A stretch of DNA of 64,000 nucleotides from a virus. Its lineage: Duplodnaviria; Caudoviricetes. Under the pieces are notes generated by a model. That model worked only from the letters and a program-made list of their open reading frames with translations, had not been told where the DNA came from and made no database searches. Shown here piece after piece: positions 33,283-50,400 of this stretch. Position 1 is the first letter of the stretch. Each line of letters begins with the position of its first letter. A program made the position numbers and the translations under genes. The stretch is taken from the IMG/VR virus record IMGVR_UViG_3300018089_000001, positions 121,487 to 185,486 of that record; one strand, written 5' to 3'.

Positions 33283-33378
33283 ACCAGTACCTTACCACGC
33301 GGACGAATTGTTTGACGCGGAAACAAATCGGGCCCGACGTCTCCGTCGGGCCCATCGAACACCGCATCACGTGCAACC

Positions 33379-33466
33379 TGGCGGATGGCAGAGGATTCGA
33401 ACCCCCGGCTTTCGCTGACCCGCGGCTAGCAACCGCGGTCCCGGACCGACTCCGGGTTTGCCATCC
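33379..33466 (-). tRNA. tRNA-Ser(GCT)
   Basis: Cloverleaf, long V arm, encoded CCA. Confidence 0.85.
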
Positions 33467-33468
33467 AA

Positions 33469-33645
33469 TTACAATCCGAGTTCCTTTCGAGCCTGGCCCA
33501 TCGTCACATGGTAAGTGACCGTGGCCTGATGCCACCCCTTATCAGGGATGACGACAGAATCCTGGAACCAGCGAAACACCGCGTCGTCTGGAAGATGCGA
33601 CATCGCGGCCACCAGCTCCTTAAGGGTCGTGGTCTTCGTTTCCAT
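33469..33645 (-). CDS. small hypothetical protein (METKTTTL...)
   Basis: 58-aa ORF filling the space between two tRNAs. Confidence 0.5.
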   Translation of the reverse strand: METKTTTLKELVAAMSHLPDDAVFRWFQDSVVIPDKGWHQATVTYHVTMGQARKELGL

Positions 33646-33647
33646 CG

Positions 33648-33716
33648 TCGCGGCGGGGAGACTCGAACCCCCGGAGATCGCCTTATGAGAGCGTCCCGGC
33701 CCCTGGCCTCGCCGCG
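33648..33716 (-). tRNA. tRNA-Met/Ile2(CAT)
   Basis: CTCATAA loop, GGTTCGAG T arm; short D arm. Confidence 0.65.
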
Positions 33717-33777
33717 ATGTCTAGCGGGCCCCAGCGGGCCCGCGGAGTGACTCAAACTTGACAGGCCACCTTCCCCA

Positions 33778-34227
33778 TCACTTAGAGATGGCGATGGCGT
33801 AGAAGGCCTCCGACTCATTCCGACAGCGCCACCGCCTGATCAGGGCGGGCCGCGAGAGGGAGTGGACGCCGTTCTCCGCGAGGTTGCGTCGCGTCCGGGC
33901 GGAGTCCGCCACGATGACCCGGCCACCAACGCTCGCCACGACGGCGACCCAGTGCCTCCACTGGTCGATGCAGACCAGACAGGGCCGGCCCTCGGCCACG
34001 TTGGAGCGGACGAAGGCCCAGGCGGCCGGTCCGTCCATGCCGCCCCAGGGGGTGGCCTTCAGACCGAGCCCGCGGATCGCGCGGATGAGCTGCGACTCGT
34101 CCGTCCCGTCGGGACCGGACTCCGCCAGCCGCCTCACCCGCGACTCGGAGACGCGGACGCCGAGGGCCTGACAGGCGTTGACGACCGCAGCCGAACCGCA
34201 GCTCCACTCCGTGGCCTGATACCTAAT
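33778..34227 (-). CDS. C39-like cysteine peptidase (probable ATT start)
   Basis: RYQATEWSCGSAA..GT..HWVAV..VADS catalytic C/H/D. Confidence 0.75.
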   Translation of the reverse strand: MRYQATEWSCGSAAVVNACQALGVRVSESRVRRLAESGPDGTDESQLIRAIRGLGLKATPWGGMDGPAAWAFVRSNVAEGRPCLVCIDQWRHWVAVVASVGGRVIVADSARTRRNLAENGVHSLSRPALIRRWRCRNESEAFYAIAISK

Positions 34228-34254
34228 CTCGAGTCCCTGCTATATCTGGGGAGC

Positions 34255-34977
34255 ATGGCTGGAATATACTCGCTGATCGATCCACGGACAGGAATCGTAA
34301 GGTACGTGGGGAAAACTACACACTCTCTTAGTAAGAGGTTGAAATCTCACCTTGGAGACCGCAGCCAAACCGCAAAGACTCGCTGGATCCATGAACTGCT
34401 CTCAGAGAGCATGTCTCCATTGATCCAATGGCTCGAAGAAGGAGACCTCAATCTCAACGAGAGGGAGATCTGGTGGATCAACCAACTACGATCAGAAGGT
34501 GTGGACCTGACGAATAGCACCGACGGAGGCGACGGCGGAAGGATCGAACTGGATGTACAATCGAAGCAACGCTGGATCGAAAAACTCTCTCTTCGTAGAC
34601 GAGAATGGTGGCAACGTGCCAGCATTGATGCAAAGCAGAAACAGGCAGCGTCTGTCTCGCAACACTGGCAAAACCTCTCCAACGAAGAGAGGAGCATCAG
34701 ATCTGAATCGATCCGAAGCGGACTCAAGGGGATGCCCTCCCCGCTTAGGGGGCGCAAGCAGTCTGAACAGCAGAGAGAGCGCCTGAGGAGCGCTCTCTCT
34801 GACCCATCTGTCAGATCAAAAATGTCAGAGGCGCGGAGAGAATGGTGGAAGAAAAACAAGGATAGGCCAAGACCACCTGTCGCTGACTCAACTCGAGAGA
34901 AACTACGAAAGGCTGCCCTCAAAAGGGAGGAGCGAAAGAGGTCCCAGAGGGATTCGAACCCACGACCATCCCGTTAG
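34255..34977 (+). mobile_element. GIY-YIG homing endonuclease with NUMOD3-like tail
   Basis: GIYSLIDPRTG.VRYVGKT..RLKSH, E..WI, LTN..GG; lower GC. Confidence 0.85.
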
Positions 34978-35013
34978 AACCGGGAAGCTCTTGTCCACTG
35001 AGCTTATGGGACC
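34939..35013 (-). tRNA. tRNA-Arg(TCT)
   Basis: Cloverleaf, loop GTTCTAA. Confidence 0.85.
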
Positions 35014-35014
35014 C

Positions 35015-35091
35015 TGGAGTGCGACCTCGGGATCGAACCGAGCAACAGGCGGGTTGCAGCCGCCGCCCTTCATCCAGCCGGGACGTCGCAC
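35015..35091 (-). tRNA. tRNA-Cys(GCA)
   Basis: Loop CTGCAAC, U73, CCA. Confidence 0.85.
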
Positions 35092-35101
35092 AGAACTTCG
35101 T

Positions 35102-35371
35102 TCAGAGGATGCGTCTCAGGAAGTTGAGGAGCGCGTCCGCGTGGTCGTGGGAGAGGGAGAGCAGGCCGCGGAGGCCGCCGTGCGTCGGACTGGCCGTCCG
35201 GTCCCTGTCCAGGACCTCCCAGAGGGCAGCCCTCTCCAGGGGGGAGAGGACGACCGCCTTCGGATCGAGGTAGCCGCCGAGGGCCTCCGTGACCGCCACG
35301 AGGCCCGCCAGCGGGTCCTCGTCGGGAAACGGCCCACCCGGGAAGATGGGTTCGTCAGTGGTCTCACTCAT
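35102..35371 (-). CDS. hypothetical protein
   Basis: GGAGG SD upstream of MSETTDEP. Confidence 0.55.
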   Translation of the reverse strand: MSETTDEPIFPGGPFPDEDPLAGLVAVTEALGGYLDPKAVVLSPLERAALWEVLDRDRTASPTHGGLRGLLSLSHDHADALLNFLRRIL

Positions 35372-35386
35372 CTCTGGATTCCTCCG

Positions 35387-35457
35387 TAGCCCTGTGGAGA
35401 ATCGAACTCCATCCCGATGATTGAAAATCATCTCGACTGCCGTTATCTGACAGGGCC
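35387..35457 (-). tRNA. tRNA-Glu(TTC)
   Basis: Loop TTTTCAA, T arm GTTCGATTC. Confidence 0.8.
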
Positions 35458-35943
35458 TCTTGCTTTCCGCAGTGCCTTCGCTCTCGTCGAGAGAGGGAAT
35501 TTCCCCACATTTCGACCGCTGTAGGTCGATGTAAGGGCATGACACATCGCACAAAGCAACCTTAGGTTGCTTCGATCGTTGTTGTCTGGGTTTCCGTCAA
35601 TGCGATCCATCTGGATTGGAGCGGGCTGGCCCAACCACTCCATGATTCCACAGTTCTCGCAGCGACGTCCCATTTCACGTAGCAGATGAAGTTTACGAGC
35701 GCCGTCTGATTTCAGAGCACCCCAGCTGCGATCCATCACCGGAATCACACGGATCTTACAAAGATTGCAGTGGACCTTTGTGCCAAACTCGCGATTGTAC
35801 ACAGCACCACATTGCGTGCAAGTTCTAAACTTTCGGAGGCGCTCACCGACATCGCGCTGTGAACACTTCCTTGAGCAAAACCGTTTACGCGATGATGGCT
35901 TGACTTGAAATGAAATTCCGCACTTACAAGTGCGATCTTCCAT
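35443..35943 (-). mobile_element. HNH endonuclease with N-terminal Zn fingers (catalytic His replaced by Arg)
   Basis: CENC..QMDRIDGNPDNN..NLRLLCAMCH. Confidence 0.8.
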
Positions 35944-35991
35944 ACGTCCTTCCGTTAGACTGACGGGGCCAAGCTGCCATAGAATTATGCC

Positions 35992-36219
35992 ATGAGGGCA
36001 TGCATCTACGTTCCGTTCGTCTCCTGTCGAGGCGTGGAGTACGAGCTGGAGATCGAGCCGTCCGACGACGGACGGATACACGCGGTGGGACGCTTCGTCG
36101 AGGACGAGCGGGGGACCGTCACGGCCGAGCCGCTCGGACTGAGCTGGGACGGCCTGATCCCCATGTCGCAGGACCTGCGGGTCGCGATCGTCAGCTGGCG
36201 ATCCGATCCGGGAAACTAG
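35992..36219 (+). CDS. hypothetical protein
   Basis: TAGAAT-N6-ATG; high-GC3 ORF. Confidence 0.6.
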   Translation: MRACIYVPFVSCRGVEYELEIEPSDDGRIHAVGRFVEDERGTVTAEPLGLSWDGLIPMSQDLRVAIVSWRSDPGN

Positions 36220-36221
36220 GG

Positions 36222-36294
36222 TGCGGACGATGGGATTCGAACCCACCACCCCCTGATTGGCAACCAGGCGCTCTACCGAATGAGCTACGTCCGC
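36222..36294 (-). tRNA. tRNA-Gly(GCC)
   Basis: Loop TTGCCAA. Confidence 0.9.
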
Positions 36295-36334
36295 GTGTCA
36301 GCAGGCTACTACCCGGCCTGCCAGCGGTATCAGT

Positions 36335-37951
36335 TCACTTCACGAAGCCGGCCATCTCGGCCGCGAACCTCAGGATCCCCTCGCCCCAGCCGCCGAGGAC
36401 GTACGTCCGCCGGTAGAACTCGGGCATGATGGTGTCCTGGTAGCCGGCGACCTGCACCAGGAAGACGTTCACGTCGGGGTTGACCTCAGCGCGGTACTTC
36501 CTGACCAGCTTGGCGACGTCGATGTGGCGACCGTCCCAGGCGTAGTCGCGGTACTCACCGGGCTTGATCCCGTACAGGCCGCCGTGGCCCGCCTGCATGT
36601 CCGAGAACACGAAGACGTTGTCCCACCTGACCTTGCCCGCGATCGCGTCCCGCCAGAACATCCAGATCCCGTTCTCGGTGGACTGCCCGATGTCCCGGGC
36701 CAGCGACTCCGCGCGGGCGAGCTGGTCGAACGCCGAGGCGAGCTTGCGCACCGGAAAGACCTTGAGGTCGTCGCCGAAGACTCCGAGGCTGCCCTCGTCG
36801 GACGCCATGGCCGCGATGATGCCGGTCAGGTTCGCGATCGTGGACACCCGCATGCTTCCCATCGAGGAGGTGGTGGCCCCCTGCGCCGAGCCGCTGTTGT
36901 CACACAGCGAGATCGTCCTGCCCGGGAGACGCGGGACGTTGTCCAGCGAGGTACGCAGGCATCGCTCGATCGCATCGAGCACGGTGGCCGGGGCGATGTC
37001 CTGGACGGCCAGGTACGCCGAGTAGTATCGGAACGGCAGCTGCTTGCCCGCGGCCGCGCCCTCGACGAGCTTGTCCACGAAGACCGACGGGTCGATCCCC
37101 TTCTGGAGGACGTTCCGCACGTTCCTGAGGAGAGCCATGTGGCCCATCACGTCGATCGCCTTCCGCCAGTTCTCCGGGGTGGAGCCGCCGGTCGAGATGA
37201 TCGACTCCCAGGTCTGGTCCGTGGAGACCAGCTTTCCCTTCATCAGGGCGTCGAGCGCCGCGGTCCGCTTGGGATGGACGAGGTTCACGACGTCGAGCGT
37301 CTTGACCGTCCGGTTCTCCATGCGGTACTTGGCGAGCTGATACTCCGTCAACCGCGTCAGCTTGTCCGCCCACGCCTTCTTCAGCGAGTTCGGGATGGGC
37401 GCGTCCTTGCCGAAGCGCCAGACGTGATAGGCCAGCCCCACCGCCGGCTCGTCGGCGCGCTGGATGATGTCCGGCGCGTACTGCCGCACCAGGCCGGTCC
37501 CGCGAACCTTGGGGTGACGCGCGGCCCGCACGAGGATGACCTGCGGGGTCGTCCTGATGTGCTCGGCCTGCCGCAGCCGCACGGCCTCCTTGAGAGTGCG
37601 GACCGGATCGTGGTCGAGGGCCCGGTCGATGGCCGACTCGATCGCCTCGGCCGGCGTCTTCCCACGCCACTCCTGGGGATCGATCGCGTCGAGCGTCTTC
37701 CGCAGCTCGACGCGCTGGGCGTCGGTCAGGAAGGACGGGACCGATGTGTGGTGAGGCACCGGTCGCTTGACACGCCTGTCCTCCGGATCGGCCTCGTAGT
37801 ACTTCGGCTCACCGAAGAAGCACGAGCTCGCGGCGATCCTGAGGGCCTTGACGGGATCGTTGATGTCATATGACTCGCCGCCCATCCAGTTCAGGTGAGG
37901 CGTCGGCGCCTCGGGCGCCTGCTTGGTCTCGTGGAACCGGGACATCGTCAC
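36335..37951 (-). CDS. rsr: Ro60/TROVE-domain RNA-binding protein (TROVE + vWA)
   Basis: YQLAKY, TWES.IS, MGHMALLRNVRN, QLPFRYYSAY, DNSGS (MIDAS), SDMQ. Confidence 0.92.
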   Translation of the reverse strand: MTMSRFHETKQAPEAPTPHLNWMGGESYDINDPVKALRIAASSCFFGEPKYYEADPEDRRVKRPVPHHTSVPSFLTDAQRVELRKTLDAIDPQEWRGKTPAEAIESAIDRALDHDPVRTLKEAVRLRQAEHIRTTPQVILVRAARHPKVRGTGLVRQYAPDIIQRADEPAVGLAYHVWRFGKDAPIPNSLKKAWADKLTRLTEYQLAKYRMENRTVKTLDVVNLVHPKRTAALDALMKGKLVSTDQTWESIISTGGSTPENWRKAIDVMGHMALLRNVRNVLQKGIDPSVFVDKLVEGAAAGKQLPFRYYSAYLAVQDIAPATVLDAIERCLRTSLDNVPRLPGRTISLCDNSGSAQGATTSSMGSMRVSTIANLTGIIAAMASDEGSLGVFGDDLKVFPVRKLASAFDQLARAESLARDIGQSTENGIWMFWRDAIAGKVRWDNVFVFSDMQAGHGGLYGIKPGEYRDYAWDGRHIDVAKLVRKYRAEVNPDVNVFLVQVAGYQDTIMPEFYRRTYVLGGWGEGILRFAAEMAGFVK

Positions 37952-37980
37952 TGCCTTTCTCTCGGAGGAGTGGAGGAGTT

Positions 37981-38047
37981 GGCGGAGGAAGGGCGGGCGC
38001 GGTGTTTTTCACCCAATAGAAGTAACCGCTCCCAAGTCACTGCCGCC
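37981..38047 (-). ncRNA. Y-RNA-like 1 (Pro TGG-like loop)
   Basis: GGCGG/CCGCC stem, CAGTGA..CGGTTACTTC..GAA..TTCCT scaffold next to TROVE. Confidence 0.7.
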
Positions 38048-38050
38048 TAG

Positions 38051-38118
38051 CGCATCCGGATCGAATTGAACGACCATCTCCCGATGTTGAGTCAGGGCTC
38101 TGCTTGAGCTACGAACGC
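38051..38118 (-). tRNA. atypical tRNA-like gene, anticodon CAA, short V arm
   Basis: Cloverleaf with 5-nt D loop, loop CTCAACA. Confidence 0.5.
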
Positions 38119-38125
38119 AAGTCGC

Positions 38126-38260
38126 ACGTCGGAGAATACCGCCCACGGTGTGTTAGCGTGCTACCGTTACACCAAGGACCCATGGAGTGGGCCCCCCAGG
38201 ACTTGAACCTGGACCTCTCTCTTACAAGGAGAAGTAACCGCAGGACATCACTGCCGACGT
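38126..38260 (-). ncRNA. Y-RNA-like 2 (YrlA-type) containing a circularly permuted tRNA-Thr(TGT)
   Basis: Scaffold plus anticodon arm, T arm, loop-closed acceptor stem and D arm in permuted order. Confidence 0.8.
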
Positions 38261-38271
38261 ACGGAAAGTGT

Positions 38272-38363
38272 CGCAATGCGAAGGAAGTCGACGACGGGTT
38301 TTTCGTTTTCGGTTGAAAACCGAATGATGTTGAAGTAACCGTCACCATCACTGTCGCATCGCG
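38272..38363 (-). ncRNA. Y-RNA-like 3 (Glu TTC loop)
   Basis: Scaffold plus TTCGG-TTTTCAA-CCGAA hairpin. Confidence 0.72.
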
Positions 38364-38366
38364 TCG

Positions 38367-38435
38367 TGCTCCCGGACCGAGTCGAACGGCCGGCCTCCCA
38401 GACCAGCTGGGCGCTCTACACTGAGCTACGGGAGC
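38367..38435 (-). tRNA. atypical tRNA-like gene with 5-nt anticodon loop (CTGGT, Thr-like)
   Basis: Good acceptor/D/T arms; CCCAG-CTGGT-CTGGG. Confidence 0.55.
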
Positions 38436-38439
38436 TAAA

Positions 38440-38503
38440 GGGGAAGGAAGCTCGGAGCGGGGTTGTTCTTGGCATGAAGTAACCGCTTACCGTCACTGTC
38501 CCC
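38440..38503 (-). ncRNA. Y-RNA-like 4 (Gly GCC loop)
   Basis: Scaffold plus TTC-ATGCCAA-GAA; CATAAT 5 nt upstream. Confidence 0.72.
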
Positions 38504-38539
38504 AAGCCATTATGGCACTGTCGTTAGCAGTGCCGCTCG

Positions 38540-38612
38540 AGCGACCGGCGGGTCTCGAACCCGCCACCCCACGGTTGGGAACCGTGCGTTCTACCGGATG
38601 AACTACGGTCGC
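38540..38612 (-). tRNA. tRNA-Gly(CCC)
   Basis: Loop TTCCCAA. Confidence 0.9.
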
Positions 38613-38617
38613 GTCGG

Positions 38618-38689
38618 AGCAGGAGACGGGACTCGAACCCGCAGTCTTCTGGTTGGAAGCCAGGTGCCCTGCCGTTGGGCCACTCCTGC
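38618..38689 (-). tRNA. tRNA-Gly(TCC)
   Basis: Loop CTTCCAA. Confidence 0.9.
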
Positions 38690-38693
38690 AAAC

Positions 38694-38991
38694 GGTCACG
38701 GGCGAGAGGTGTGCTGTCACGCCAAAGACTCAGACGGAGCTGTGTCGGCCATGGTCCGACTCATCGCCTCGTCGGAGGGCCCACGCCGTTCAAGGCGAGC
38801 GTGGGATCCGATCTGCGCCCTAATCCGCCGTTCCCAGCGGTCTCCGTGGGGACAGGCGCGGTGCCTTGATACGTCCGCGCCCTTCCTTACGCCCGGGTCA
38901 GAAGCCTTATCGCCCTTCGCTGCCGGGACCCCGTCGTCACTCTTTAAAGGATGGCTGCTCTTAGGCCAACCTCCCTATCGCTCTCGTGACC
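38694..38991 (-). ncRNA. ~300-nt RNA mimicking the 23S rRNA L11-binding (H43/H44) domain with a large insertion
   Basis: GGAGGTTGGCCTAAGAGCAGCCATCCTTTAAAGAGT...GCGTGACAGCACAC; ends pair GGTCACG/CGTGACC. Confidence 0.7.
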
Positions 38992-39068
38992 TGGTAGCGC
39001 ATCCGGGTGTCGATCCCGGTTTTCCCGGCTGAGAACCGGGCGTACTAGCCAACGTGTACTAATGCGCC
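38992..39068 (-). tRNA. tRNA-Glu(CTC)
   Basis: Loop TTCTCAG; CCA; T loop starts with A. Confidence 0.8.
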
Positions 39069-39069
39069 G

Positions 39070-39145
39070 TGGCGCCCCGTACGGGAATCGAACCCGTCTT
39101 GACCCGATCGACAATCGGGCGTCCACGCCAGTGGACCTACGAGGC
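39070..39145 (-). tRNA. tRNA-Asp(GTC)
   Basis: Loop TTGTCGA; GCCA end. Confidence 0.85.
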
Positions 39146-39153
39146 ATTCAGAG

Positions 39154-39227
39154 TGGGCCGCCTCGGACTCGAACCGAGAACTGTCTCCTTAAGAGGGAGG
39201 TGCGATGCGCTATTTCACCAGCGACCC
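39154..39227 (-). tRNA. tRNA-Lys(CTT)
   Basis: Loop CTCTTAA. Confidence 0.85.
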
Positions 39228-39333
39228 GAATAGTTCCCGGTCTCTCCCGGGCGTCAAGCCTCATCTGAGCGGTTGGGCTTTCTCCTCTGCACCGCGTGTC
39301 GCCCGGTGTGCTCCGGCGCCGGCCAAGACTGCG

Positions 39334-39415
39334 TGGGAGACCGTGGAATCGAACCACGTCGTGCATGACGACCGCTGATTTACAGTCAGGTGCCTTACCG
39401 GTCGGCCAGTCTCCC
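39334..39415 (-). tRNA. tRNA-Tyr(GTA)
   Basis: Loop CTGTAAA, long V arm. Confidence 0.85.
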
Positions 39416-39522
39416 AATCGATCACCCGGATGGACTGGCATCCCCCGGGATCCCCGATGCTCTCCTGCCAGGGATCACATCGAGCGCCGCGCTCTGCCTT
39501 AAGAGGGCCACGCGGCGTCTAG

Positions 39523-39600
39523 TAGCGGAGCCTTGGAATCGCACCAAGCTATTCCGGGTTATGAGCCCGGCCCTGAATGCACTAGCTCAGGTTGCCCGCA
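39523..39600 (-). tRNA. tRNA-Met(CAT), initiator-like, divergent
   Basis: CCGGG-CTCATAA-CCCGG with 3 G-C pairs; irregular acceptor/T loop. Confidence 0.6.
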
Positions 39601-39720
39601 TAAACTCGGCCGTCTCTCCGGCCTGTCACGACTGTTCCCGGCGTGGACCAACTCACTTGTTCCCCGACCCGTGATCAGCGGGCCGACTGACTATCCGGAG
39701 GCTCGTCGTCTCCTTGGTCG

Positions 39721-39794
39721 AGGTTCCGGAGGGACTCGAACCCCCACTCATCTCGTTAGGACCGAGGTGCCTTGTCCTGTTGGGCTACGGAACC
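39721..39794 (-). tRNA. tRNA-Arg(CCT)
   Basis: Loop GTCCTAA. Confidence 0.85.
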
Positions 39795-39799
39795 GCTTG

Positions 39800-39870
39800 T
39801 ACTCCGGGAGGGACTCGAACCCCCAACTCCCCGCTCATAGGGCGGGAACTCTACGTTGAGTTACCGGAGC
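39800..39870 (-). tRNA. tRNA with anticodon TAT (Ile-AUA?)
   Basis: CCCGC-CCTATGA-GCGGG; good cloverleaf. Confidence 0.65.
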
Positions 39871-39884
39871 ATGTGGCCATCATA

Positions 39885-40049
39885 TCACCTCGGTGGACGG
39901 ACGGAGGTCAAGGCCGCGAGGTTGAAGTTTCCGTCCCCGCTCCGCTTGGCGCGGTCGCCACGTGGCTTCTCGAACTGGCCCAGCCGACGCTTCCACCACA
40001 GGAAGAACGTCTGGGCGCAGTGGAAGCAGGTGCTGTCGCAGTGCTGCAT
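39885..40049 (-). CDS. small Cys/His protein (MQHCDSTCFHC...)
   Basis: AGGAGG SD, 54 aa. Confidence 0.55.
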   Translation of the reverse strand: MQHCDSTCFHCAQTFFLWWKRRLGQFEKPRGDRAKRSGDGNFNLAALTSVRPPR

Positions 40050-40068
40050 CGCGACCTCCTTGTTTTTG

Positions 40069-40140
40069 TCGAGGTGACAGGGATCGAACCTGCGACTCCC
40101 AGGCCCCCAGCCTGGTGCGCTACCGCTGCGCTACACCTCG
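40069..40140 (-). tRNA. tRNA-Pro(GGG)
   Basis: Loop CTGGGGG. Confidence 0.9.
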
Positions 40141-40146
40141 ATATCG

Positions 40147-40230
40147 TGCCAGTGGTGGGACTCGAACCCACACGTCCTCGCGGACACAGCGACCTCAACG
40201 CTGCGCGTCTTCCGACTCCGCCACACCGAC
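40147..40230 (-). tRNA. tRNA-Leu(GAG)
   Basis: Loop TTGAGGT, long V arm. Confidence 0.9.
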
Positions 40231-40296
40231 ATAACTGCTGGAGCTCCCCGCTGCCCGGGACTTGCGCATCGGACGCGCGTTCGACCGATGGCTCCA

Positions 40297-40374
40297 TGGT
40301 CTAGGTGAGAGGGCTCGAACCTCCGAACCTCGCGCTCCCGAAGCGCGCGCTCTACCGAACTGAGCTACACCTAG
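40297..40374 (-). tRNA. tRNA-Pro(CGG)
   Basis: Loop TTCGGGA, CCA. Confidence 0.9.
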
Positions 40375-40569
40375 ATGGCGCCCCGATTTACTGCAGGCCT
40401 CGGGGCCACGGCACACTTGAAGTTGAAATCGACTGCGGGGGCTTTCCACATGTTCCCCGCGATGATTCGTCGGCTAGGGACCGCCGCGAGTGGTCCCCCG
40501 GTCCCCGCGAAGGACCGCCAGGCCTAGAACTTAGTCCTCCCCGGCACGTACTCGGGGACGTCGACTCCG

Positions 40570-40653
40570 TGCCGGTGGGGAGACTCGAACTCCCACGGGG
40601 TTTCCCCCACCACGTTCTGAGCGTGGCGCGTCTTCCGACTCCGCCACACCGGC
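40570..40653 (-). tRNA. tRNA-Leu(CAG)
   Basis: Loop CTCAGAA, long V arm. Confidence 0.9.
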
Positions 40654-40659
40654 ATTCCG

Positions 40660-40726
40660 CGGGCCCACCAGGACTCGAACCCGGCTCAGCGGTTTTGGAG
40701 GCCGCCATCCTCCCTGAGGTGGACCC
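40660..40726 (-). tRNA. tRNA-Trp(CCA)
   Basis: Loop CTCCAAA; short D arm. Confidence 0.75.
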
Positions 40727-40734
40727 AATCGAAG

Positions 40735-40806
40735 TCGGGATGACTGGTGTCGAACCAGCCGCCTCCTGTGCCCAAGACAGGCGTCGCTCCCCGCGACTAC
40801 ATCCCG
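40735..40806 (-). tRNA. tRNA-Pro(TGG)
   Basis: Loop CTTGGGC. Confidence 0.85.
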
Positions 40807-40838
40807 ATGTTGACGGATGGCGTGGTCTTTGCCGGGTT

Positions 40839-40849
40839 ATTGTACCACA
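40839..40849 (-). promoter_or_regulatory. extended -10 promoter (TGTGGTACAAT) inside tRNA array
   Basis: TGn-TACAAT in intergenic gap. Confidence 0.45.
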
Positions 40850-40896
40850 CCTACCGACGCGATCACCTCTCGGCGTCACCGCTCGGTTACCCATCG

Positions 40897-40968
40897 TGCG
40901 GCCTAGTGGGATCGAACCACTGGTCTCCGCCGTGTCGAGGCGGTGCCTTCCCGCTTGGCCAAGGCCGC
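40897..40968 (-). tRNA. tRNA-Val(GAC)
   Basis: Loop TCGACAC. Confidence 0.85.
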
Positions 40969-41014
40969 ATTAGCCCGAAATTTCCAGCCTCGGGACGGGG
41001 CATTCTTCTAGGCG

Positions 41015-41082
41015 TACCCCATAGAGGACTCGAACCTCTCCTCCGTGGTTCGTAGCCACGGGCCTGATCCTTCAGATGGGGC
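41015..41082 (-). tRNA. tRNA-Arg(ACG)
   Basis: Loop CTACGAA; short D arm. Confidence 0.8.
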
Positions 41083-41093
41083 GTGTCGCTCGG

Positions 41094-41161
41094 TGCCTCG
41101 TGGGAGAGTCGAACTCCCTCGTCACCCTTCGGAGGGGCGAGTCTGTTCCGTCAGACGAGGC
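41094..41161 (-). tRNA. tRNA-Arg(CCG)
   Basis: Loop CTCCGAA; short D arm. Confidence 0.8.
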
Positions 41162-41162
41162 G

Positions 41163-41236
41163 TGGTGGGGAGGGATGGGTTTGAACCACCATCCAACGGC
41201 GTTTGGGCCGCCCGTTCTCTCTTGACGTACCTCCCC
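41163..41236 (-). tRNA. atypical tRNA-like gene with 6-nt anticodon loop (CCAAAC)
   Basis: Perfect GGGGAGG/CCTCCCC acceptor + ACCA and T arm; no readable anticodon. Confidence 0.55.
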
Positions 41237-41237
41237 G

Positions 41238-41313
41238 TGGTCGCTGGGCCCAGAGTCGAACTGGGTTCTCCCGCTTTTCAGGCGGGCGCTTGGACCTCCC
41301 AAGCTGCTCAGCG
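41238..41313 (-). tRNA. tRNA-Phe(GAA)
   Basis: Loop CTGAAAA, CCA. Confidence 0.85.
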
Positions 41314-41318
41314 TTCCG

Positions 41319-41392
41319 TGCGTGGTGAGGGAATCGAACCCCCGCGTCGTCTCCGTGTAAAGGAGATGCCTTTCCGACTTGGCCAACCACGC
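41319..41392 (-). tRNA. tRNA-Val(TAC)
   Basis: Loop TTTACAC. Confidence 0.9.
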
Positions 41393-41396
41393 GTCG

Positions 41397-41467
41397 TGCT
41401 TCATAGAGGGGTCGAACCTCTGTGGGTCGCTTATCGGGCGACTCCTCTGCCGTTGAGGTAATGAAGC
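41397..41467 (-). tRNA. tRNA-Ile(GAT)
   Basis: Loop CCGATAA. Confidence 0.85.
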
Positions 41468-41472
41468 ATTCG

Positions 41473-41545
41473 TGGATCCCAGGGGACTCGAACCCCTCGC
41501 CTCCAGCGTGCCACGCTGGCGCTCTCCCGGATGAGCTAGGAACCC
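41473..41545 (-). tRNA. tRNA-Ala(GGC)
   Basis: Loop GTGGCAC; G3:U70. Confidence 0.85.
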
Positions 41546-41657
41546 ATTGATCTCAGAAACTCTGCGTATCGGAGGTAGCGGATCAATCGGCCTCCCTTTC
41601 GGTATGAACGGCCCCGCCACAGCCTCTTCTCCGGATTGTGCCTGCGCTTCTTCATCG

Positions 41658-41729
41658 TGGAGGTGAGGGGAGTCGAACCCCTTACTCGGCCTTGCGAAAG
41701 CCGCGTGTTCCCAATTATACCACACCCCC
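41658..41729 (-). tRNA. tRNA-Ala(CGC)
   Basis: Loop TTCGCAA; G3:U70. Confidence 0.85.
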
Positions 41730-41809
41730 AAAAGGTGGGCCTCGTACGCGGAGGGCCCGGTCCACGGCCCATACGCAACCCGTACCGCGCTCACGGTTGC
41801 ATGGAAAGT

Positions 41810-41961
41810 TGGGACCGCCCGGGCTCGCACCGGGTGCACAGGCGGGTCAGCTACTCCCGCGCCTCGCGAGGTCTCCGCGACGCCGTGTCCGATTCAAAGT
41901 CGGGCGTGCGTCCGTGTTGGCGGGGTCGTCCGGCCTTCCAGCCGTCTCCCGTCTCGGTCCC
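41810..41961 (-). ncRNA. oversized tRNA-like RNA (~150 nt) with Gln TTG-like loop
   Basis: GGGACCG/CGGTCCC-A acceptor, CCCGG-TGCGAGC-CCGGG T-like arm, CCGA-CTTTGAA-TCGG. Confidence 0.5.
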
Positions 41962-41965
41962 GTAA

Positions 41966-42136
41966 TCATCTCTGCCCGTCGTCGATCAGCGAACACGGAC
42001 ACTTGTGTTTCACAGGCAGGATGCACCTACCCTTAGACCTCATGGTCCCATACCGAACCCGAATGAATTCGGGACACCGATTCGGGTCATTCCGCTTCCA
42101 GGGGTTGTCTCCCCATTGCGGAGTGCGTCTCTTCAT
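41966..42136 (-). CDS. small basic hypothetical protein
   Basis: 56-aa ORF between RNA genes. Confidence 0.35.
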   Translation of the reverse strand: MKRRTPQWGDNPWKRNDPNRCPEFIRVRYGTMRSKGRCILPVKHKCPCSLIDDGQR

Positions 42137-42141
42137 CTTCG

Positions 42142-42214
42142 CTCCAGGAGCAGGGCTCGAACCTGCCAACACGTAGGTAACAGCTACGCGGCTAACCAAA
42201 TCGCCTTTCCTGGA
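42142..42214 (-). tRNA. tRNA-Asn(GTT)
   Basis: Loop CTGTTAC; U1-A72, G73. Confidence 0.85.
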
Positions 42215-42218
42215 AAGG

Positions 42219-42291
42219 AGGGCCGTGTAGGGATCGAACCTACGACCAATCGGTTAACAACCGAACGCTCTACTCTCTGAGCTAACGACCC
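42219..42291 (-). tRNA. tRNA with GTT anticodon on a Lys-like body
   Basis: GGGTCGTTAGCTCAG..; loop TTGTTAA. Confidence 0.8.
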
Positions 42292-42297
42292 ATTCGG

Positions 42298-42369
42298 AGC
42301 TGGCGGCGGGACTCGAACTCGCATCGGGCGGTTTACAAGGCCGCCATGTTGCCATTACACCACGCCAGC
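42298..42369 (-). tRNA. tRNA-Thr(TGT)
   Basis: Loop CTTGTAA. Confidence 0.9.
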
Positions 42370-42375
42370 ATGCAG

Positions 42376-42446
42376 TTCAGGGTGAAGGACTCGAACCCTC
42401 ACAGCGGGGGTCAAAGCCCCGCGTCCTGCCGTTAGACGAACCCTGA
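42376..42446 (-). tRNA. tRNA-Gln(TTG)
   Basis: Loop CTTTGAC. Confidence 0.9.
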
Positions 42447-42452
42447 ATGTAG

Positions 42453-42523
42453 TTGAGAGGGTAGGGATCGAACCTACACCCTTCGGGTCAGAACCGAAGA
42501 TCCTTCCACTAGACGACCTCTCA
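42453..42523 (-). tRNA. tRNA-Gln(CTG)
   Basis: Loop TTCTGAC. Confidence 0.9.
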
Positions 42524-43016
42524 ATGATCGCTGGTAAACAATATTCTTGGAGCCGAACGTCGGAGTCTGCGAGTGACAGTTTGGACAAATGATGCGGAGG
42601 TTCTCGCGTCGGTTGTCACGCTTATCTCCGTTGATGTGATCGACCTGCAAGCGAAGCGGAGCGCCATTCCATGTCAATCCCTGTCCGCACTCGCATCGTT
42701 CATCCCGACCGTCATCAACCAGTAGTCGGAGCAGACCACCGCTCTTGAATCTCGTGTCTTTTTGAAAGACACGCTCTCGATATTCTGGAGTCGATCGGTG
42801 CCGTCGCTTCGATGAGCCGTAGTAGGGAACCAACTCGATCCCCAACTCAGACATCCTCATACGGAGAACCGCGTACCCAATTCGACCGTATCCCAAATCA
42901 GACAAGCCGCGAATGACATCGGCAATGTATCCCGATCGATTCGCGAGCTCCCTCAGAGTCTCTTCCGGACAGTTGGCGATTCTTGAAGCTGCACTATTTG
43001 CACGCCGTCGACGCAT
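42474..43016 (-). mobile_element. HNH homing endonuclease
   Basis: CECG..LQVDHINGDKRDNRRENLRIICPNCHSQT; lower GC. Confidence 0.88.
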
Positions 43017-43028
43017 TTTACCATTTAG

Positions 43029-43101
43029 AGCTGCCCACGGGGATCGAACCCGTCGCCTCCCGCTTACGAAACGGGCGCGCCTCCGTTGGCGCATGGACAG
43101 C
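43029..43101 (-). tRNA. tRNA-Thr(CGT)
   Basis: Loop TTCGTAA. Confidence 0.9.
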
Positions 43102-43106
43102 AGTCG

Positions 43107-43181
43107 TAGGCCCCCTCGGACTCGAACCGAGAACTCGCCGGGTAAAAGCCGGGTGCGATTACGCGATTTCGCCAGGGACCC
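43107..43181 (-). tRNA. tRNA-Lys(TTT)
   Basis: Loop CTTTTAC. Confidence 0.85.
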
Positions 43182-43186
43182 ATGAG

Positions 43187-43260
43187 AGCTGGTGATGGGG
43201 ATCGAACCCACATCCTATCGCATACCAAGCGATCGTACTTCCGTCCTGTACTTCACCAGC
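43187..43260 (-). tRNA. tRNA-Thr(GGT)
   Basis: Loop TTGGTAT. Confidence 0.9.
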
Positions 43261-43419
43261 AGAGTCGTCGCGGATAGGGGACTCGAACCCAGCACACCGA
43301 CTTCGTGCCGGCCCCCCACCATGAGAGCTCATGGCCGTGAAGCGGCGCCGCCGCACATGCCACTCGGTGCTGTCCTCCGCGTGCTGGACAGTTTTGCCAC
43401 GTGTCCGGGTGGGGTCTCG

Positions 43420-43491
43420 TGCGGACGGCGGGATTCGAACCCGCAGCATCTGGATTTTGAATCTGGACCGTAGACCTATCTCGTCGTCCGC
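43420..43491 (-). tRNA. atypical tRNA, anticodon CAA, short V arm, mismatched anticodon stem
   Basis: Perfect acceptor and T arms; loop TTCAAAA. Confidence 0.5.
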
Positions 43492-43523
43492 ATGGCGGGC
43501 CTTTTTGAGAGATGCCCAGCTCT

Positions 43524-43598
43524 TGGGGTGATCGACGGGAGTTGAACCCGCTCCCCCAGGGACACAACCTGGGATGCAGCCGTTACACCTCGATCACC
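43524..43598 (-). tRNA. tRNA-His(GTG)
   Basis: G-1:C73, CCA; loop TTGTGTC. Confidence 0.9.
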
Positions 43599-43600
43599 GG

Positions 43601-43670
43601 TGCGCGGGGGTAGTCTTGACCTACCAATTTCCGGATAAAAACCGGACGTGTTGCATTACACCACCCACGC
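43601..43670 (-). tRNA. second tRNA-Lys(TTT)-like, divergent T loop
   Basis: TCCGG-TTTTTAT-CCGGA; T loop GTCAAGA. Confidence 0.65.
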
Positions 43671-43739
43671 TCAGTGGGGCTCGCAACCCCACGTTGCACA
43701 TGATACGATATTCGATTGTCAGGGAACCCGGAAACTATG

Positions 43740-43824
43740 CGGAGCGTTGAGGATTCGAACCCCTGCCCTCTCGGGCCTCCCGGTTTTCGAGGCCGGTGCC
43801 GGCACCCGACCGGCTTAACGCTCC
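43740..43824 (-). tRNA. tRNA-Ser(CGA)
   Basis: Loop CTCGAAA, long V arm. Confidence 0.88.
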
Positions 43825-43841
43825 AATTTTTTGCTATCCTA

Positions 43842-43979
43842 TCACTTCTTCGAAAGCTCGAGGGCCCTCTCTACGATCTCCCGAATCATGTTTCTCGAGT
43901 ACTCTCGGACACCCTCGTCCATTCGATGGACGTCGTACCTCTCCTCGAGTATCCTCTCGACGATTTCCTCTATCGTCAT
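43842..43979 (-). CDS. small acidic helical protein (MTIEEIVERIL...)
   Basis: 45-aa ORF between tRNAs. Confidence 0.5.
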   Translation of the reverse strand: MTIEEIVERILEERYDVHRMDEGVREYSRNMIREIVERALELSKK

Positions 43980-43983
43980 CTCG

Positions 43984-44068
43984 CGGATGGGGTGGGATTC
44001 GAACCCACGGAACCTTTCGGCTCTCCCGGCTTCCAACCGGGTACTATAGACCGCTCTGCCACCCATCC
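43984..44068 (-). tRNA. tRNA-Ser(GGA)
   Basis: Loop TTGGAAG, long V arm. Confidence 0.9.
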
Positions 44069-47674: not shown

Positions 47675-48037
47675 TTACGCGTCAGGAACTTCTTCGATGC
47701 GGCAGCTCCCGTACCGGTTCTTCACCACGCTCAGCGTGCCGTCGGGATTGACCCGTGCCATCATAGCGCAGTAGAGGAGGTCGTCCCGTGAGACCCCCCG
47801 CTCACAGTACCATATCGGTCCAAAGACCATCATCGGCATCTCCCATACGAACCACTCAACGCCGCCCCACCACAGGGCCTTCTGCTCGACTACGGGTCTC
47901 ATAATCGCAGGGACCTTCGGGAGGATCCGGCGCCAGTCCGAGCTCACGGGACCCTTGCCGCAGCGATCGTTCGGGCAGTACACGCTCGTGAAGAGCGGAC
48001 GTAGATCGGACCCGCACGTGGGACACTCCCGCGTCAT
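47675..48037 (-). CDS. Zn-finger protein, paralog B
   Basis: CPTC..LFTSVYC; WRRILPKVPA; VVKNRYG. Confidence 0.65.
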   Translation of the reverse strand: MTRECPTCGSDLRPLFTSVYCPNDRCGKGPVSSDWRRILPKVPAIMRPVVEQKALWWGGVEWFVWEMPMMVFGPIWYCERGVSRDDLLYCAMMARVNPDGTLSVVKNRYGSCRIEEVPDA

Positions 48038-48870: not shown

Positions 48871-49177
48871 GGCGTCGCTCCCTCCACCATCGGCGGAACG
48901 CGCCGAGCGGCCTGACCTCGAGGAGCCACTCGCCCCGCAGGACGATCCGGCCCTCGTGGACCCGCGTCACGATCCCGAAGACGTAGCGGTCCCCGAGGGC
49001 CACGCCGGGGAAGGACGACTCGGAGTCGACGATCCTGATGTCCAGGTCCCGCTCGTAGCCCAGCGCCTCGAGGCGCTTGACGGCGGCGTCGATGGCCATG
49101 ATGATCGACCGGGTCGTCCGGTCGATCGCCGCGATCGGCTCCGATCCGTCGACCTCGATGACGTCCTCGCGGTCCAT
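48854..49177 (-). CDS. hypothetical protein
   Basis: Coupled ORF. Confidence 0.6.
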   Translation of the reverse strand: MDREDVIEVDGSEPIAAIDRTTRSIIMAIDAAVKRLEALGYERDLDIRIVDSESSFPGVALGDRYVFGIVTRVHEGRIVLRGEWLLEVRPLGAFRRWWRERRRARAA

Positions 49178-49488: not shown

Positions 49489-49564
49489 TTTTGGATTATA
49501 AGCCGGCCGGGAACAGCGGGAGACGGACGCGCCCGCCAAGGCGACAGCGATATAATCTTTCTTG

Positions 49565-50360: not shown

Positions 50361-50400
50361 GAGGAGTCCGACGAGCTCACTCCGGCTGAGGGGGCGCCCG

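What the first reader, a model, noticed from the sequence alone, without database searches (positions are those of the whole stretch)
38694..38991. Split mimic of the 23S rRNA GTPase-associated centre (uL11/thiostrepton site) in the tRNA array
Seen: GGAGGTTGGCCTAAGAGCAGCCATCCTTTAAAGAGT, then ~210 nt of hairpin-rich insert, then GCGTGACAGCACAC, closed by GGTCACG/CGTGACC and bounded by tRNAs. Known: 23S H43-H44 reads approximately GGAUGUUGGCUUAGAAGCAGCCAUCAUUUAAAGAAAGCGUAAUAGCUCAC, binds uL11 next to the uL10 stalk, and is needed for RelA activation and translational GTPases. Inference: an rRNA-mimic ncRNA that sequesters uL11/uL10, dampens the stringent response, or decoys rRNA-targeting toxins or thiopeptides.
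Basis: partly seen in the sequence, partly recalled or inferred. Interest (0 to 1): 0.85.

Follow-up and report, generated by a model that had tools for sequence, protein, structure and literature searches.

The report
Phage RNA copying ribosome's GTPase centre
In the middle of its 41-gene tRNA array, this uncultured T4-like phage encodes a 298-base non-coding RNA whose two ends fold into a faithful, self-closed copy of the piece of 23S ribosomal RNA that binds protein uL11 and meets the translation GTPases. It belongs to a large phage RNA family that I could not find described, and it most likely works away from the ribosome as an imitation of that site.

Summary
The 5' part matches 23S positions 1055-1090 and the 3' part matches 1091-1104. 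A 216-nt structured insert separates them, a 16-17 bp stem closes them, and tRNA-Glu and tRNA-Gly flank them within 0 and 4 nt.

It is not a stray rRNA fragment. The same split layout occurs in Pseudomonas phage Astolliot, in other cultured phages (GAP32, CBB, pf16, XacN1 and others) and in over 120 distinct IMG/VR elements. Across these, pair 1058-1080 takes all four Watson-Crick forms. The closing stem and the base of the insert covary. The known tertiary base triple 1072/(1092-1099) switches together (C/C-G or U/U-A), as it does in real rRNAs.

Elements lie on the same strand as neighbouring tRNAs (521 to 1). No protein partner is conserved nearby, and this phage encodes no uL11, bL12 or RelA.

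Rfam 15 has no match, and eight literature searches found no description. This scan had already noted the family on many other genomes, also without finding a paper.

Function is untested. Most likely it is cut out by tRNA-processing enzymes and binds host uL11 as a decoy. A role as a decoy for toxins aimed at this site is the main rival. A1067 and A1095 are only 81-88% conserved (G1095 here), which argues against a thiopeptide sponge.

The parts
38694..38991 (-). Whole ncRNA gene (298 nt): split mimic of the 23S GTPase-associated centre
   Evidence: Sequence read. Family covariance model built without it: 62.5 bits, E 1.8e-19, model 1-172/172, only hit in the window.
38974..38991 (-). 5' strand of the closing stem (H42-like; equivalent to 23S ~1038-1055)
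   Evidence: Pairs with 38694-38709: 7 bp, a small 3x1 internal loop, 4 bp, a U-C mismatch, then 3 bp (MFE fold). In the family this stem covaries at all 10 pairs counted.
38939..38973 (-). H43 with the 1067 loop, plus the 1082-1090 junction strand (23S 1056-1090). A1067 = 38962, C1072 = 38957.
   Evidence: U1060, A1088, U1082, A1086, G1087 and the pairs 1057-1081, 1059-1079 and 1062-64/1074-76 are invariant in 81 members (some of these positions were fixed by the search pattern). Pair 1058-1080 is G-C here and takes all four Watson-Crick forms in the family.
38727..38938 (-). Variable structured insert (212 nt) between 23S positions 1090 and 1091
   Evidence: The basal helix GAC/GUC is paired. 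In the family the first three pairs are paired in 80, 80 and 72 of 81 members, with covariation. The predicted fold is multi-hairpin. It shows no blastn similarity to other members' inserts or to other parts of 23S.
38723..38726 (-). Conserved UUUG linker between the insert helix and the top of H44
   Evidence: UUUG in 67 and UUUA in 10 of 81 members.
38709..38722 (-). Top of H44 and return strand (23S 1091-1104). C1092 = 38721, G1095 = 38718, G1099 = 38714, A1101 = 38712.
   Evidence: The triple 1072/(1092-1099) is C/C-G here. In 122 members it is C/C-G in 77 and U/U-A in 36, with 9 mixed. A1101 pairs with U1090 (79/81), whereas the real rRNAs seen here have U or C at 1101.
38694..38709 (-). 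3' strand of the closing stem
38992..39068 (-). tRNA-Glu(CUC) with encoded CCA, directly upstream; its 3' processing would define the 5' end of the RNA
   Evidence: ARAGORN; Rfam tRNA 44.4 bits.
38616..38689 (-). tRNA-Gly(UCC), 4 nt downstream; RNase P cleavage at its 5' end would define the 3' end of the RNA
   Evidence: ARAGORN; Rfam tRNA 67.1 bits.
33329..33354 (-). Terminator-like hairpin after the last tRNA of the array, the likely end of the shared transcription unit
   Evidence: 11-bp stem with 9 G-C pairs, followed by a T-rich tail. No promoter-like or terminator-like site lies next to the element.

Best explanation
The element is a gene for a stable non-coding RNA. It belongs to a large phage family of 'split GAC' RNAs.

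Shown: its two ends rebuild the secondary and tertiary architecture of the 23S rRNA GTPase-associated centre. This comprises H43 with the 1067 loop, the U1060-A1088 and U1082-A1086 contacts, the 1072/(1092-1099) base triple and the H44 hairpin. A stem of its own replaces the rest of H42 and closes the domain. A lineage-specific structured insert leaves H44 between positions 1090 and 1091 through a three-way junction with a conserved UUUR linker.

Inferred from position: it is co-transcribed with the tRNA array and released by the tRNA-processing enzymes, with RNase P cutting at the downstream tRNA and 3' processing occurring at the upstream tRNA.

Inferred from mimicry: off the ribosome, the folded domain binds a host component that recognises this site. 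The most likely candidate is ribosomal protein uL11, whose C-terminal domain binds exactly this 58-nt domain in isolation. The RNA would then act as a decoy or sponge for the uL11 / stalk-base module during infection. Possible consequences include fewer uL11-bearing ribosomes and weaker RelA activation.
For: - Sequence and layout.
- Family: Astolliot has the same layout. There are 81 and then 122 distinct split elements, and cultured phages on Pseudomonas, Cronobacter, Pectobacterium, Erwinia, Serratia, Yersinia, Xanthomonas, Aeromonas and Paenibacillus carry it.
- Covariation: pair 1058-1080 is GC 46, UA 43, AU 25, CG 7. On alignment A1, 92.6% of cells pair against 74.6% when shuffled, the covariation score is 0.450 against 0.131, and 0 of 500 shuffles reach the observed value; slid controls give 37-55% paired.
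- Tertiary triple: it switches jointly in 113 of 122 members. Real cyanobacterial and CPR (candidate phyla radiation) 23S genes show the same coupling in 49 of 52.
- Insert junction: basal pairs are paired in 80/81, 80/81 and 72/81 members; the UUUR linker is present in 77/81.
- Model test: a covariance model built without this sequence finds it at E 1.8e-19. The same model also scores real 23S centres at 49-59 bits, which shows how faithful the copy is.
- Context: 69 of 84 loci hold tRNAs, 521 on the same strand against 1 opposite, often 10-20 nt away. No promoter or terminator lies beside the element.
- No conserved neighbouring protein. The phage record has no uL11, bL12 or RelA/SpoT gene, so any partner must come from the host.
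- Established knowledge (Conn et al. 1999; Wimberly et al. 1999; Conn, Gutell and Draper 1998; recalled, not read here): uL11 binds the isolated 1051-1108 fragment, binding depends on its tertiary fold, and the 1072/(1092-1099) triple covaries in rRNA.
Against: - No binding, expression or processing data exist.
- uL11 binding is inferred from mimicry alone.
- The insert sits inside H44 and could alter or block protein binding. Its 3D position relative to the uL11 surface was not modelled.
- Free uL11 is a small pool and uL11 is not essential in E. coli, so the benefit of a sponge within one infection cycle is unclear.
- The hypervariable insert (27-364 nt, many unrelated classes) is not explained by a simple sponge model.
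- The 2D energy model prefers pairing AAAGA (1084-1088) with the UCUUU that ends the insert over the native junction. The z-score of the whole fold is only -1.94.
Confidence: 0.5

Rival explanations
1. Decoy substrate for toxins or antibiotics that attack the GTPase-associated centre. The free copy would soak up an rRNA-directed ADP-ribosyltransferase, nuclease or thiopeptide, so that ribosomes keep working during infection. This would parallel phage tRNAs that replace or outcompete tRNAs cut by defence nucleases.
For: Tre23, a bacterial toxin, ADP-ribosylates H44 at 1095-1098 of this centre and blocks EF-G GTPase (PMC8661411). Defence systems that cleave rRNA and tRNA on infection exist (bioRxiv 10.64898/2026.07.14.738597). 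The element always travels with tRNA arrays, whose proposed role includes countering attacks on translation. U1094 and A1098 are near-invariant.
Against: No anti-phage system aimed at this centre is known to me or was found. A stoichiometric decoy must compete with tens of thousands of ribosomes. The antibiotic-contacting bases are relaxed: 1067 is G in 17% of members, 1095 is not A in 12%, and this copy has G1095. Positions 1096-1097 are free to vary.
Confidence: 0.2
2. Binding platform for something other than uL11 that normally docks at this centre: a translational GTPase, RelA, or the elbow of tRNAs, which touch A1067/uL11 in the A/T state. This would titrate or chaperone that partner.
For: The whole factor-facing fold is preserved. 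A1067 and A1095 are still A in 81-88% of members. The element is co-expressed with tRNAs.
Against: Factors bind the centre weakly without the sarcin-ricin loop and the stalk proteins. The inserts contain no sarcin-ricin-like or other 23S-like segment. The relaxed 1067/1095 positions argue against a strict factor contact.
Confidence: 0.1
3. Cis-acting element of the tRNA-array transcript. It would be a uL11-responsive or purely structural module that controls processing, stability or read-through of the polycistronic tRNA precursor, by analogy with r-protein leaders that mimic rRNA.
For: It is strictly co-oriented with tRNAs and often abuts them. rRNA mimicry for r-protein feedback is an established principle.
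Against: Its position in arrays is not fixed: first, middle or isolated, and 15 of 84 loci have no tRNA in the fetched flank. It forms a self-closed domain like an independent RNA. No downstream gene is consistently associated with it.
Confidence: 0.08
4. Y-RNA-like partner of the phage's own Ro60 protein, which is encoded about 740 nt downstream in the same array.
For: A TROVE/Ro60 ORF lies at 36338-37951. The RNA has paired 5' and 3' ends, as Y RNAs do.
Against: No Ro60 gene occurs in the other ~120 loci. Rfam YrlA does not match. The closing stem has no conserved Ro-binding sequence across the family.
Confidence: 0.03
5. Non-functional debris: a captured fragment of host 23S rDNA, perhaps carrying an intron.
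For: High identity to rRNA. The insert follows a U and ends in G, as group I introns do.
Against: The element is conserved, with compensatory changes, in more than 120 unrelated phages. It has its own closing stem. Family-specific differences from rRNA exist (U1090-A1101, the UUUR linker). Inserts can be as short as 27-45 nt. Rfam gives no group I intron match at E up to 10. Astolliot's copy does not match its Pseudomonas host at pair 1058-1080 (plus my recollection that Pseudomonas 23S matches E. coli here).
Confidence: 0.02

Closest known systems
GTPase-associated centre of bacterial 23S rRNA (top of H42, H43, H44; E. coli 1051-1108; the 58-nt uL11- and thiostrepton-binding domain)
   Same: Near-identical sequence over 1055-1090 and 1091-1104. 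Same helices, the same tertiary contacts conserved, and the same covariation of pair 1058-1080 and of the 1072/(1092-1099) triple. A model of the phage family scores real rRNA centres at 49-59 bits.
   Different: It is a stand-alone gene in a phage tRNA array, not part of a 23S gene. H42 is replaced by a short closing stem of free sequence. H44 is interrupted between 1090 and 1091 by a 27-364-nt insert with a UUUR linker. Pair 1090-1101 is U-A. A1067 and A1095 are less conserved.
rRNA-mimicking leaders of ribosomal-protein operons (for example the L10 leader, Rfam RF00557, and the L1-binding site in the L11 operon mRNA)
   Same: These are RNAs outside the ribosome that imitate an r-protein binding site of rRNA.
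   Different: Those are cis-regulatory 5' leaders of cellular r-protein mRNAs and resemble rRNA only loosely. This element is a processed, self-closed RNA in phages, next to tRNAs rather than r-protein genes, and copies the rRNA almost base for base. There is no Rfam match.
Large structured RNAs of tRNA arrays and phages (GOLLD, ROOL), and the small stable RNAs of the phage T4 tRNA cluster (species 1 and 2; from my own knowledge)
   Same: Non-coding RNAs embedded in, and co-transcribed with, phage or mobile-element tRNA clusters, with function unknown (GOLLD in Mycobacterium tRNA arrays is cited in PMC12286853).
   Different: No sequence or structure relation. Rfam models of GOLLD and ROOL do not match, and T4 itself did not appear among the hits. 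None of them is an rRNA copy.
Protein-sequestering decoy RNAs (6S RNA, CsrB/RsmZ, phage RNA anti-CRISPRs; from my own knowledge)
   Same: The proposed mode of action: an RNA that imitates the natural nucleic-acid ligand of a host protein and titrates it.
   Different: The imitated ligand here would be a ribosomal RNA domain. Sequestration has not been shown.

Membership tests
23S rRNA GTPase-associated centre (as a fold) | H43 helices 1057-1059/1079-1081 and 1062-1064/1074-1076 with a nine-base 1065-1073 loop | tested here: met
   All pairs present in the window copy. 100% paired in 81 members, and pair 1058-1080 covaries through all four Watson-Crick types.
23S rRNA GTPase-associated centre (as a fold) | Tertiary contacts U1060-A1088 and U1082-A1086, and base triples G1071/(G1091-C1100) and 1072/(1092-1099) | tested here: met
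   The bases are present in the window copy and invariant in the family, although several were fixed by the search pattern. The 1072 triple, which was not fixed, covaries: C/C-G 77, U/U-A 36, mixed 9. Real rRNAs show the same coupling in 49 of 52. Formation in 3D was not tested.
23S rRNA GTPase-associated centre (as a fold) | A1067 and A1095 at the tips of the two loops (factor and thiopeptide contacts) | tested here: inconclusive
   The window copy has A1067 but G1095. In the family, 1067 is A in 107, G in 23 and U in 2; 1095 is A in 107 of 122.
23S rRNA gene (membership proper) | Lies within a full-length 23S rRNA gene with a contiguous H44 and a complete H42 | tested here: not met
   It is flanked by tRNAs at 0 and 4 nt, Rfam gives no LSU match in the window, H44 carries a 216-nt insert, and it has its own closing stem.
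Phage 'split GAC' RNA family (undescribed; defined here from 81-122 members) | 5' half ending AGAGU, an insert with a paired base, a UUUR linker, and a 3' half GYGUNNNARCACAC with A1101 | tested here: met
   The window copy has AGAGU, GAC...GUC, UUUG and GCGUGACAGCACAC.
Phage 'split GAC' RNA family (undescribed; defined here from 81-122 members) | About 10 bp or more of closing stem formed by the flanks; same strand as adjacent tRNA genes | tested here: met
   Stem of 16-17 bp, inside a 41-tRNA array all on the minus strand. Family values: stem; 521 to 1 strand bias.
Phage 'split GAC' RNA family (undescribed; defined here from 81-122 members) | Match to a covariance model built from other members | tested here: met
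   Model R1 built from 20 members without the window sequence: 62.5 bits, E 1.8e-19, full model length.
uL11-binding RNA | Binds uL11 (C-terminal domain) with a dependence on the tertiary fold | not testable with these tools
   Inferred only from conservation of the fold and of the H43 minor-groove bases.
Ribosomal-protein leader (rRNA mimic, cis-regulatory) | Located in the 5' leader of an r-protein operon | tested here: not met
   It lies between tRNA genes. No uL11 or bL12 gene is present in the phage record. No Rfam leader family matches.
Group I intron within an rRNA exon fragment | Conserved catalytic core (Rfam RF00028) and a size of about 200 nt or more | tested here: not met
   No Rfam match at E up to 10. 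Family inserts go down to 27-66 nt and fall into unrelated classes.
Y RNA (Ro60 partner) | Ro60-binding stem and association with a Ro60 gene | tested here: not met
   Ro60 is nearby only in this window. YrlA does not match the element. The closing stem sequence is not conserved.
GOLLD / ROOL / other Rfam families | Match to the Rfam covariance model | tested here: not met
   Only tRNA matches at gathering threshold in the window, and nothing on the element at E up to 10.

The most novel reading that the evidence does not exclude
Many large phages, and at least one bacterial tRNA-array element, carry a trans-acting, portable copy of a ribosomal functional centre. The copy is released from tRNA precursors and assembles with host uL11 (and possibly stalk proteins) into an off-ribosome particle. 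This particle either disarms the uL11-dependent stringent alarm or absorbs attacks aimed at the ribosome's factor-binding site. The hypervariable insert would carry a lineage-specific second function. That would be a new class of viral counter-measure acting through rRNA mimicry.
Probability: 0.45. Interest if true: 0.9.

Novelty: categorically new. Interest (0 to 1): 0.8.

Why it matters
Phages are known to carry tRNAs, tmRNAs and a few ribosomal proteins. A free-standing gene that copies a functional domain of ribosomal RNA has not, as far as I could find, been described. The copy is good enough to preserve a tertiary base triple, and it is spread across phages of Proteobacteria, Firmicutes and many uncultured lineages. 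That implies strong selection for something that recognises the ribosome's uL11 and factor-binding site outside the ribosome.

It gives a directly testable handle on how large phages manipulate or protect host translation, whether through the stringent response, uL11 supply or toxins aimed at the centre. It also supplies a natural set of over a hundred sequence variants of a textbook RNA tertiary fold. Carriers in culture (Astolliot, pf16, GAP32, CBB, XacN1) make the experiments feasible.

Tried and rejected
- Rfam at gathering threshold and at E up to 10: only tRNAs.
- blastn of the whole element against 50,697 phage records: only the 38-nt core in Astolliot.
- Relatives of this particular insert: none in IMG/VR or in JGI metagenomes. 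The single hit there, L123, is a class A member with a different insert. No covariation test of the window's own insert was therefore possible.
- Inserts against other parts of 23S, including the sarcin-ricin loop: nothing significant.
- Conserved neighbouring proteins: none. The best clusters were an HNH endonuclease in 8 of 84 loci and a TerD protein in 5.
- Phage-encoded uL11, bL12 and RelA/SpoT: absent.
- Ro60 link: rejected as a family feature.
The terminase is only 36% identical to those of Flavobacterium and Microcystis T4-like phages, so the host remains unknown.
- Literature: eight full-text searches found no description. The IMG/VR catalogue of about 10,000 candidate structured RNAs (PMC10690425) reports no rRNA overlap, and its supplements are not held as text, so I could not check whether the motif is listed there anonymously.
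- The plus-strand ORF 38598-39032 (144 aa) overlaps two tRNA genes and the structured RNA in a 64% GC genome; I treated it as spurious.

Full report
**What is there.** The element reads on the minus strand from 38991 to 38694.
- An 18-nt 5' strand begins GGUCACG.
- A 35-nt stretch follows that aligns with E. coli 23S positions 1056-1090. This is H43 with the 1067 loop, plus the UUUAAAGAGU junction strand.
- Then come 212 nt of GC-rich insert, a UUUG linker, and 14 nt that align with positions 1091-1104 (GCGUGACAGCACAC).
- A 3' strand pairs back to the 5' end, with CGUGACC outermost.

A genuine E. coli-type 23S copy turned up among the database hits (L102).

The element begins directly after the encoded CCA of tRNA-Glu(CUC) and ends 4 nt before tRNA-Gly(UCC). 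It sits inside an array of 41 tRNA genes, all on the minus strand. The core motif occurs once in the window, against 0.03 expected, and once in the 185-kb virus record.

**It is a member of a large family.**
- A blastn search of cultured phages found the 38-nt core in Pseudomonas phage Astolliot. Reading that locus showed the same split layout, a closing stem and a tRNA-Met 17 nt downstream.
- After removing duplicates and four real, contiguous 23S genes, I had 81 and then 122 distinct split elements. Inserts run from 27 to 364 nt, with a median of 176.
- A 36-nt query also found the element, unannotated, in cultured phages: GAP32, CBB, Serratia phage BF, fHe-Yen9-04, the pEa_SNUABM series, Kaldavass, XacN1, XaC1, XbC2, Aeromonas 4_4572, pf16, UNO-G1W1, Milchi and Paenibacillus Pd_22F.
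- A scan of one genome per prokaryotic species returned mostly real 23S genes. It also returned about a dozen split elements, in MAG contigs with tRNA arrays and in one complete chromosome. In Acidithiobacillus sp. M4-SHS-6 (locus L156) the element heads a 38-tRNA array.

**The structure is under selection.**
- Pair 1058-1080 is Watson-Crick in 121 of 122 members and uses all four pair types: GC 46, UA 43, AU 25, CG 7.
- On an 81-sequence alignment, the ten pairs of the closing stem all show double changes. Overall, 92.6% of cells pair against 74.6% in shuffles. The covariation score is 0.450 against 0.131, and 0 of 500 shuffles reach it. Sliding the partner by 1-3 columns drops pairing to 37-55%.
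- The most telling signal is tertiary. Base 1072 changes together with pair 1092-1099: C with C-G in 77 members, U with U-A in 36, and 9 mixed. The real 23S genes of cyanobacteria and CPR (candidate phyla radiation) bacteria recovered show the same coupling, U with U-A in 49 of 52. This is the known GAC base triple (Conn, Gutell and Draper 1998, from memory).
- U1060, A1088, U1082, A1086, G1087-C1102, G1071 and A1073 are invariant or nearly so. Several of these positions were fixed by my search patterns, so their invariance is partly by construction. The 1058, 1061, 1072, 1080 and 3'-half positions were not fixed.
- A covariance model built from 20 other members finds the window element as the only hit: full length, 62.5 bits, E 1.8e-19. 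The same model scores real 23S centres at 49-59 bits, which shows how close the imitation is.

**How the family differs from rRNA.**
- The insert always leaves between 1090 and 1091.
- Its first three base pairs covary (paired in 80, 80 and 72 of 81 members).
- Its 3' strand is joined to G1091 by UUUG (67) or UUUA (10).
- Pair 1090-1101 is U-A (79/81), where the real rRNAs seen here have U or C at 1101.
- H42 is replaced by an ordinary helix of free sequence.
- The two adenines that face factors and thiopeptides are relaxed. Position 1067 is A in 81% and G in 17%; position 1095 is A in 88%. The window copy has A1067 and G1095.
- Inserts fall into many unrelated classes. One class of 18 members shares a CACCCCG-tetraloop-CGGUAAGG module, and another class has 8 members. 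The window's insert is a singleton. None resembles another part of 23S.
- I found no relative of the window's insert in IMG/VR or JGI metagenomes. Its predicted five-hairpin fold (z = -1.94) is therefore untested.

**Context.**
- 69 of 84 representative loci contain tRNAs: 521 on the element's strand and 1 on the other.
- 33 loci have a tRNA within 150 nt downstream and 31 within 150 nt upstream. The distance from the core is typically 10-20 nt, so the closing stem abuts the tRNA.
- In the window there is no promoter-like or terminator-like site beside the element. A strong terminator-like hairpin follows the last tRNA.
- Co-transcription and release by RNase P and tRNA 3'-end processing are therefore likely, but this is inferred.
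- No protein family is a consistent neighbour.
- The phage record has no uL11, bL12 or RelA/SpoT gene, while the positive controls for those searches worked.
- The phage is a distant T4-like myovirus: its terminase is 36% identical to those of Flavobacterium and Microcystis phages. GC content is 63-65% and the host is unknown.

**What it probably does.** What is conserved is the fold and the H43 face that uL11's C-terminal domain recognises in the isolated 58-nt fragment (Conn et al. 1999 and Wimberly et al. 1999, from memory). The factor- and antibiotic-contacting adenines are looser, and no phage partner protein is encoded. On that basis, the simplest mechanism is an off-ribosome particle with host uL11, that is, a decoy or sponge for the stalk-base module. 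I put this at about 0.5.

- The main rival (0.2) is a decoy for agents that attack this centre. Such agents exist: Tre23 ADP-ribosylates H44 at 1095-1098 (PMC8661411). Defence systems that cut rRNA and tRNA on infection also exist. However, none is known to aim at this site during phage defence.
- Binding of a GTPase, RelA or tRNA elbows (0.1) and a cis role in the tRNA precursor (0.08) remain open.
- A Y-RNA-like role with the nearby Ro60 (0.03) is unlikely. Ro60 is absent from the other loci.
- The debris or intron reading (0.02) is contradicted by the covariation, by the family-specific features and by inserts as short as 27 nt.
- The hypervariable insert and the conserved UUUR linker are not explained by any of these models.

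**Novelty.**
- Rfam 15 has no family for it.
- Eight full-text searches found nothing on a phage-encoded mimic of this centre.
- Mizuno et al. 2019 describe phage bL12 and bS21 proteins but no such RNA.
- The IMG/VR catalogue of about 10,000 candidate structured RNAs reports no overlap with rRNA predictions. Its tables are not held as text, so an anonymous listing there cannot be excluded.
- Subscription journals are not covered by the paper library.
- Earlier notes of this scan record the same family on many other genomes (139 findings). Each confirmed the observation and found no publication. My analysis was done independently on this window and agrees with them.

**Limits.**
- There are no expression, processing or binding data.
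- E-values from the quickly calibrated model are rough.
- Shuffle controls do not correct for phylogeny, although the members come from very different phages and the slid controls support the signal.

Noticed in passing
window 36338-37951 (-): A 538-aa ORF with a TROVE (Ro60) domain lies inside the tRNA array, about 740 nt downstream of the element. No Ro60 gene occurs in about 120 other family loci, and Rfam finds no Y RNA nearby.
   Followed up: partly
window 38019-38042, 38231-38253, 38332-38353, 38476-38498 (-): There are four copies of the motif CAGUGA-N6-9-CGGUUACUUC (0 expected by chance) in the spacers between the element and the Ro60 ORF. AGUGAC and GUUACU can pair into a 6-bp hairpin. 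It could be a promoter, a processing signal or a protein-binding site.
   Followed up: partly
window 38050-38118 (-): The 'tRNA-Leu(CAA)' is only 69 nt long, which is too short for a long-variable-arm Leu tRNA, and it scores weakly (37.9 bits). It lies 98 nt before the Ro60 start, and further tRNA-like fragments lie at about 38120-38250. It may be the tRNA-like module of a Y RNA rather than a tRNA.
   Followed up: no
window 48000-64000: GC content rises from 61-65% to 70-74% over the last 16 kb of the record. The large ORFs there have no Pfam match. This could be a different genome module, a host flank or a chimeric assembly.
   Followed up: no
L001 (Pseudomonas phage Astolliot OM982621) about 2655-2990: A second, more divergent split copy of the same centre lies directly upstream of the first. 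It has U1072 with GUG...AAC and an insert of about 290 nt of the 'UUGCGAG...CCCGUAGAGCAUUUGG' class. Some phages therefore carry two classes in tandem.
   Followed up: partly
L156 (Acidithiobacillus sp. M4-SHS-6 chromosome, NZ_CP175559) 3530-3990: A split member with a long closing stem heads an array of 38 tRNA genes in a complete bacterial chromosome. The family is therefore tied to tRNA arrays as such, not only to phage genomes.
   Followed up: partly
window 38598-39032 (+): A 144-aa open frame on the opposite strand spans the element and overlaps both flanking tRNA genes. It is probably spurious in this GC-rich genome, but gene callers may annotate it as a hypothetical protein, as happened over the element in phages Kaldavass and Milchi.
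   Followed up: no
window 33379-44068 (-): The array holds 41 tRNA genes covering all 20 amino acids. It ends in a strong terminator-like hairpin at 33354-33329. Several spacers of 100-500 nt (for example 39416-39719 and 42524-43027) were not examined for further RNAs.
   Followed up: no
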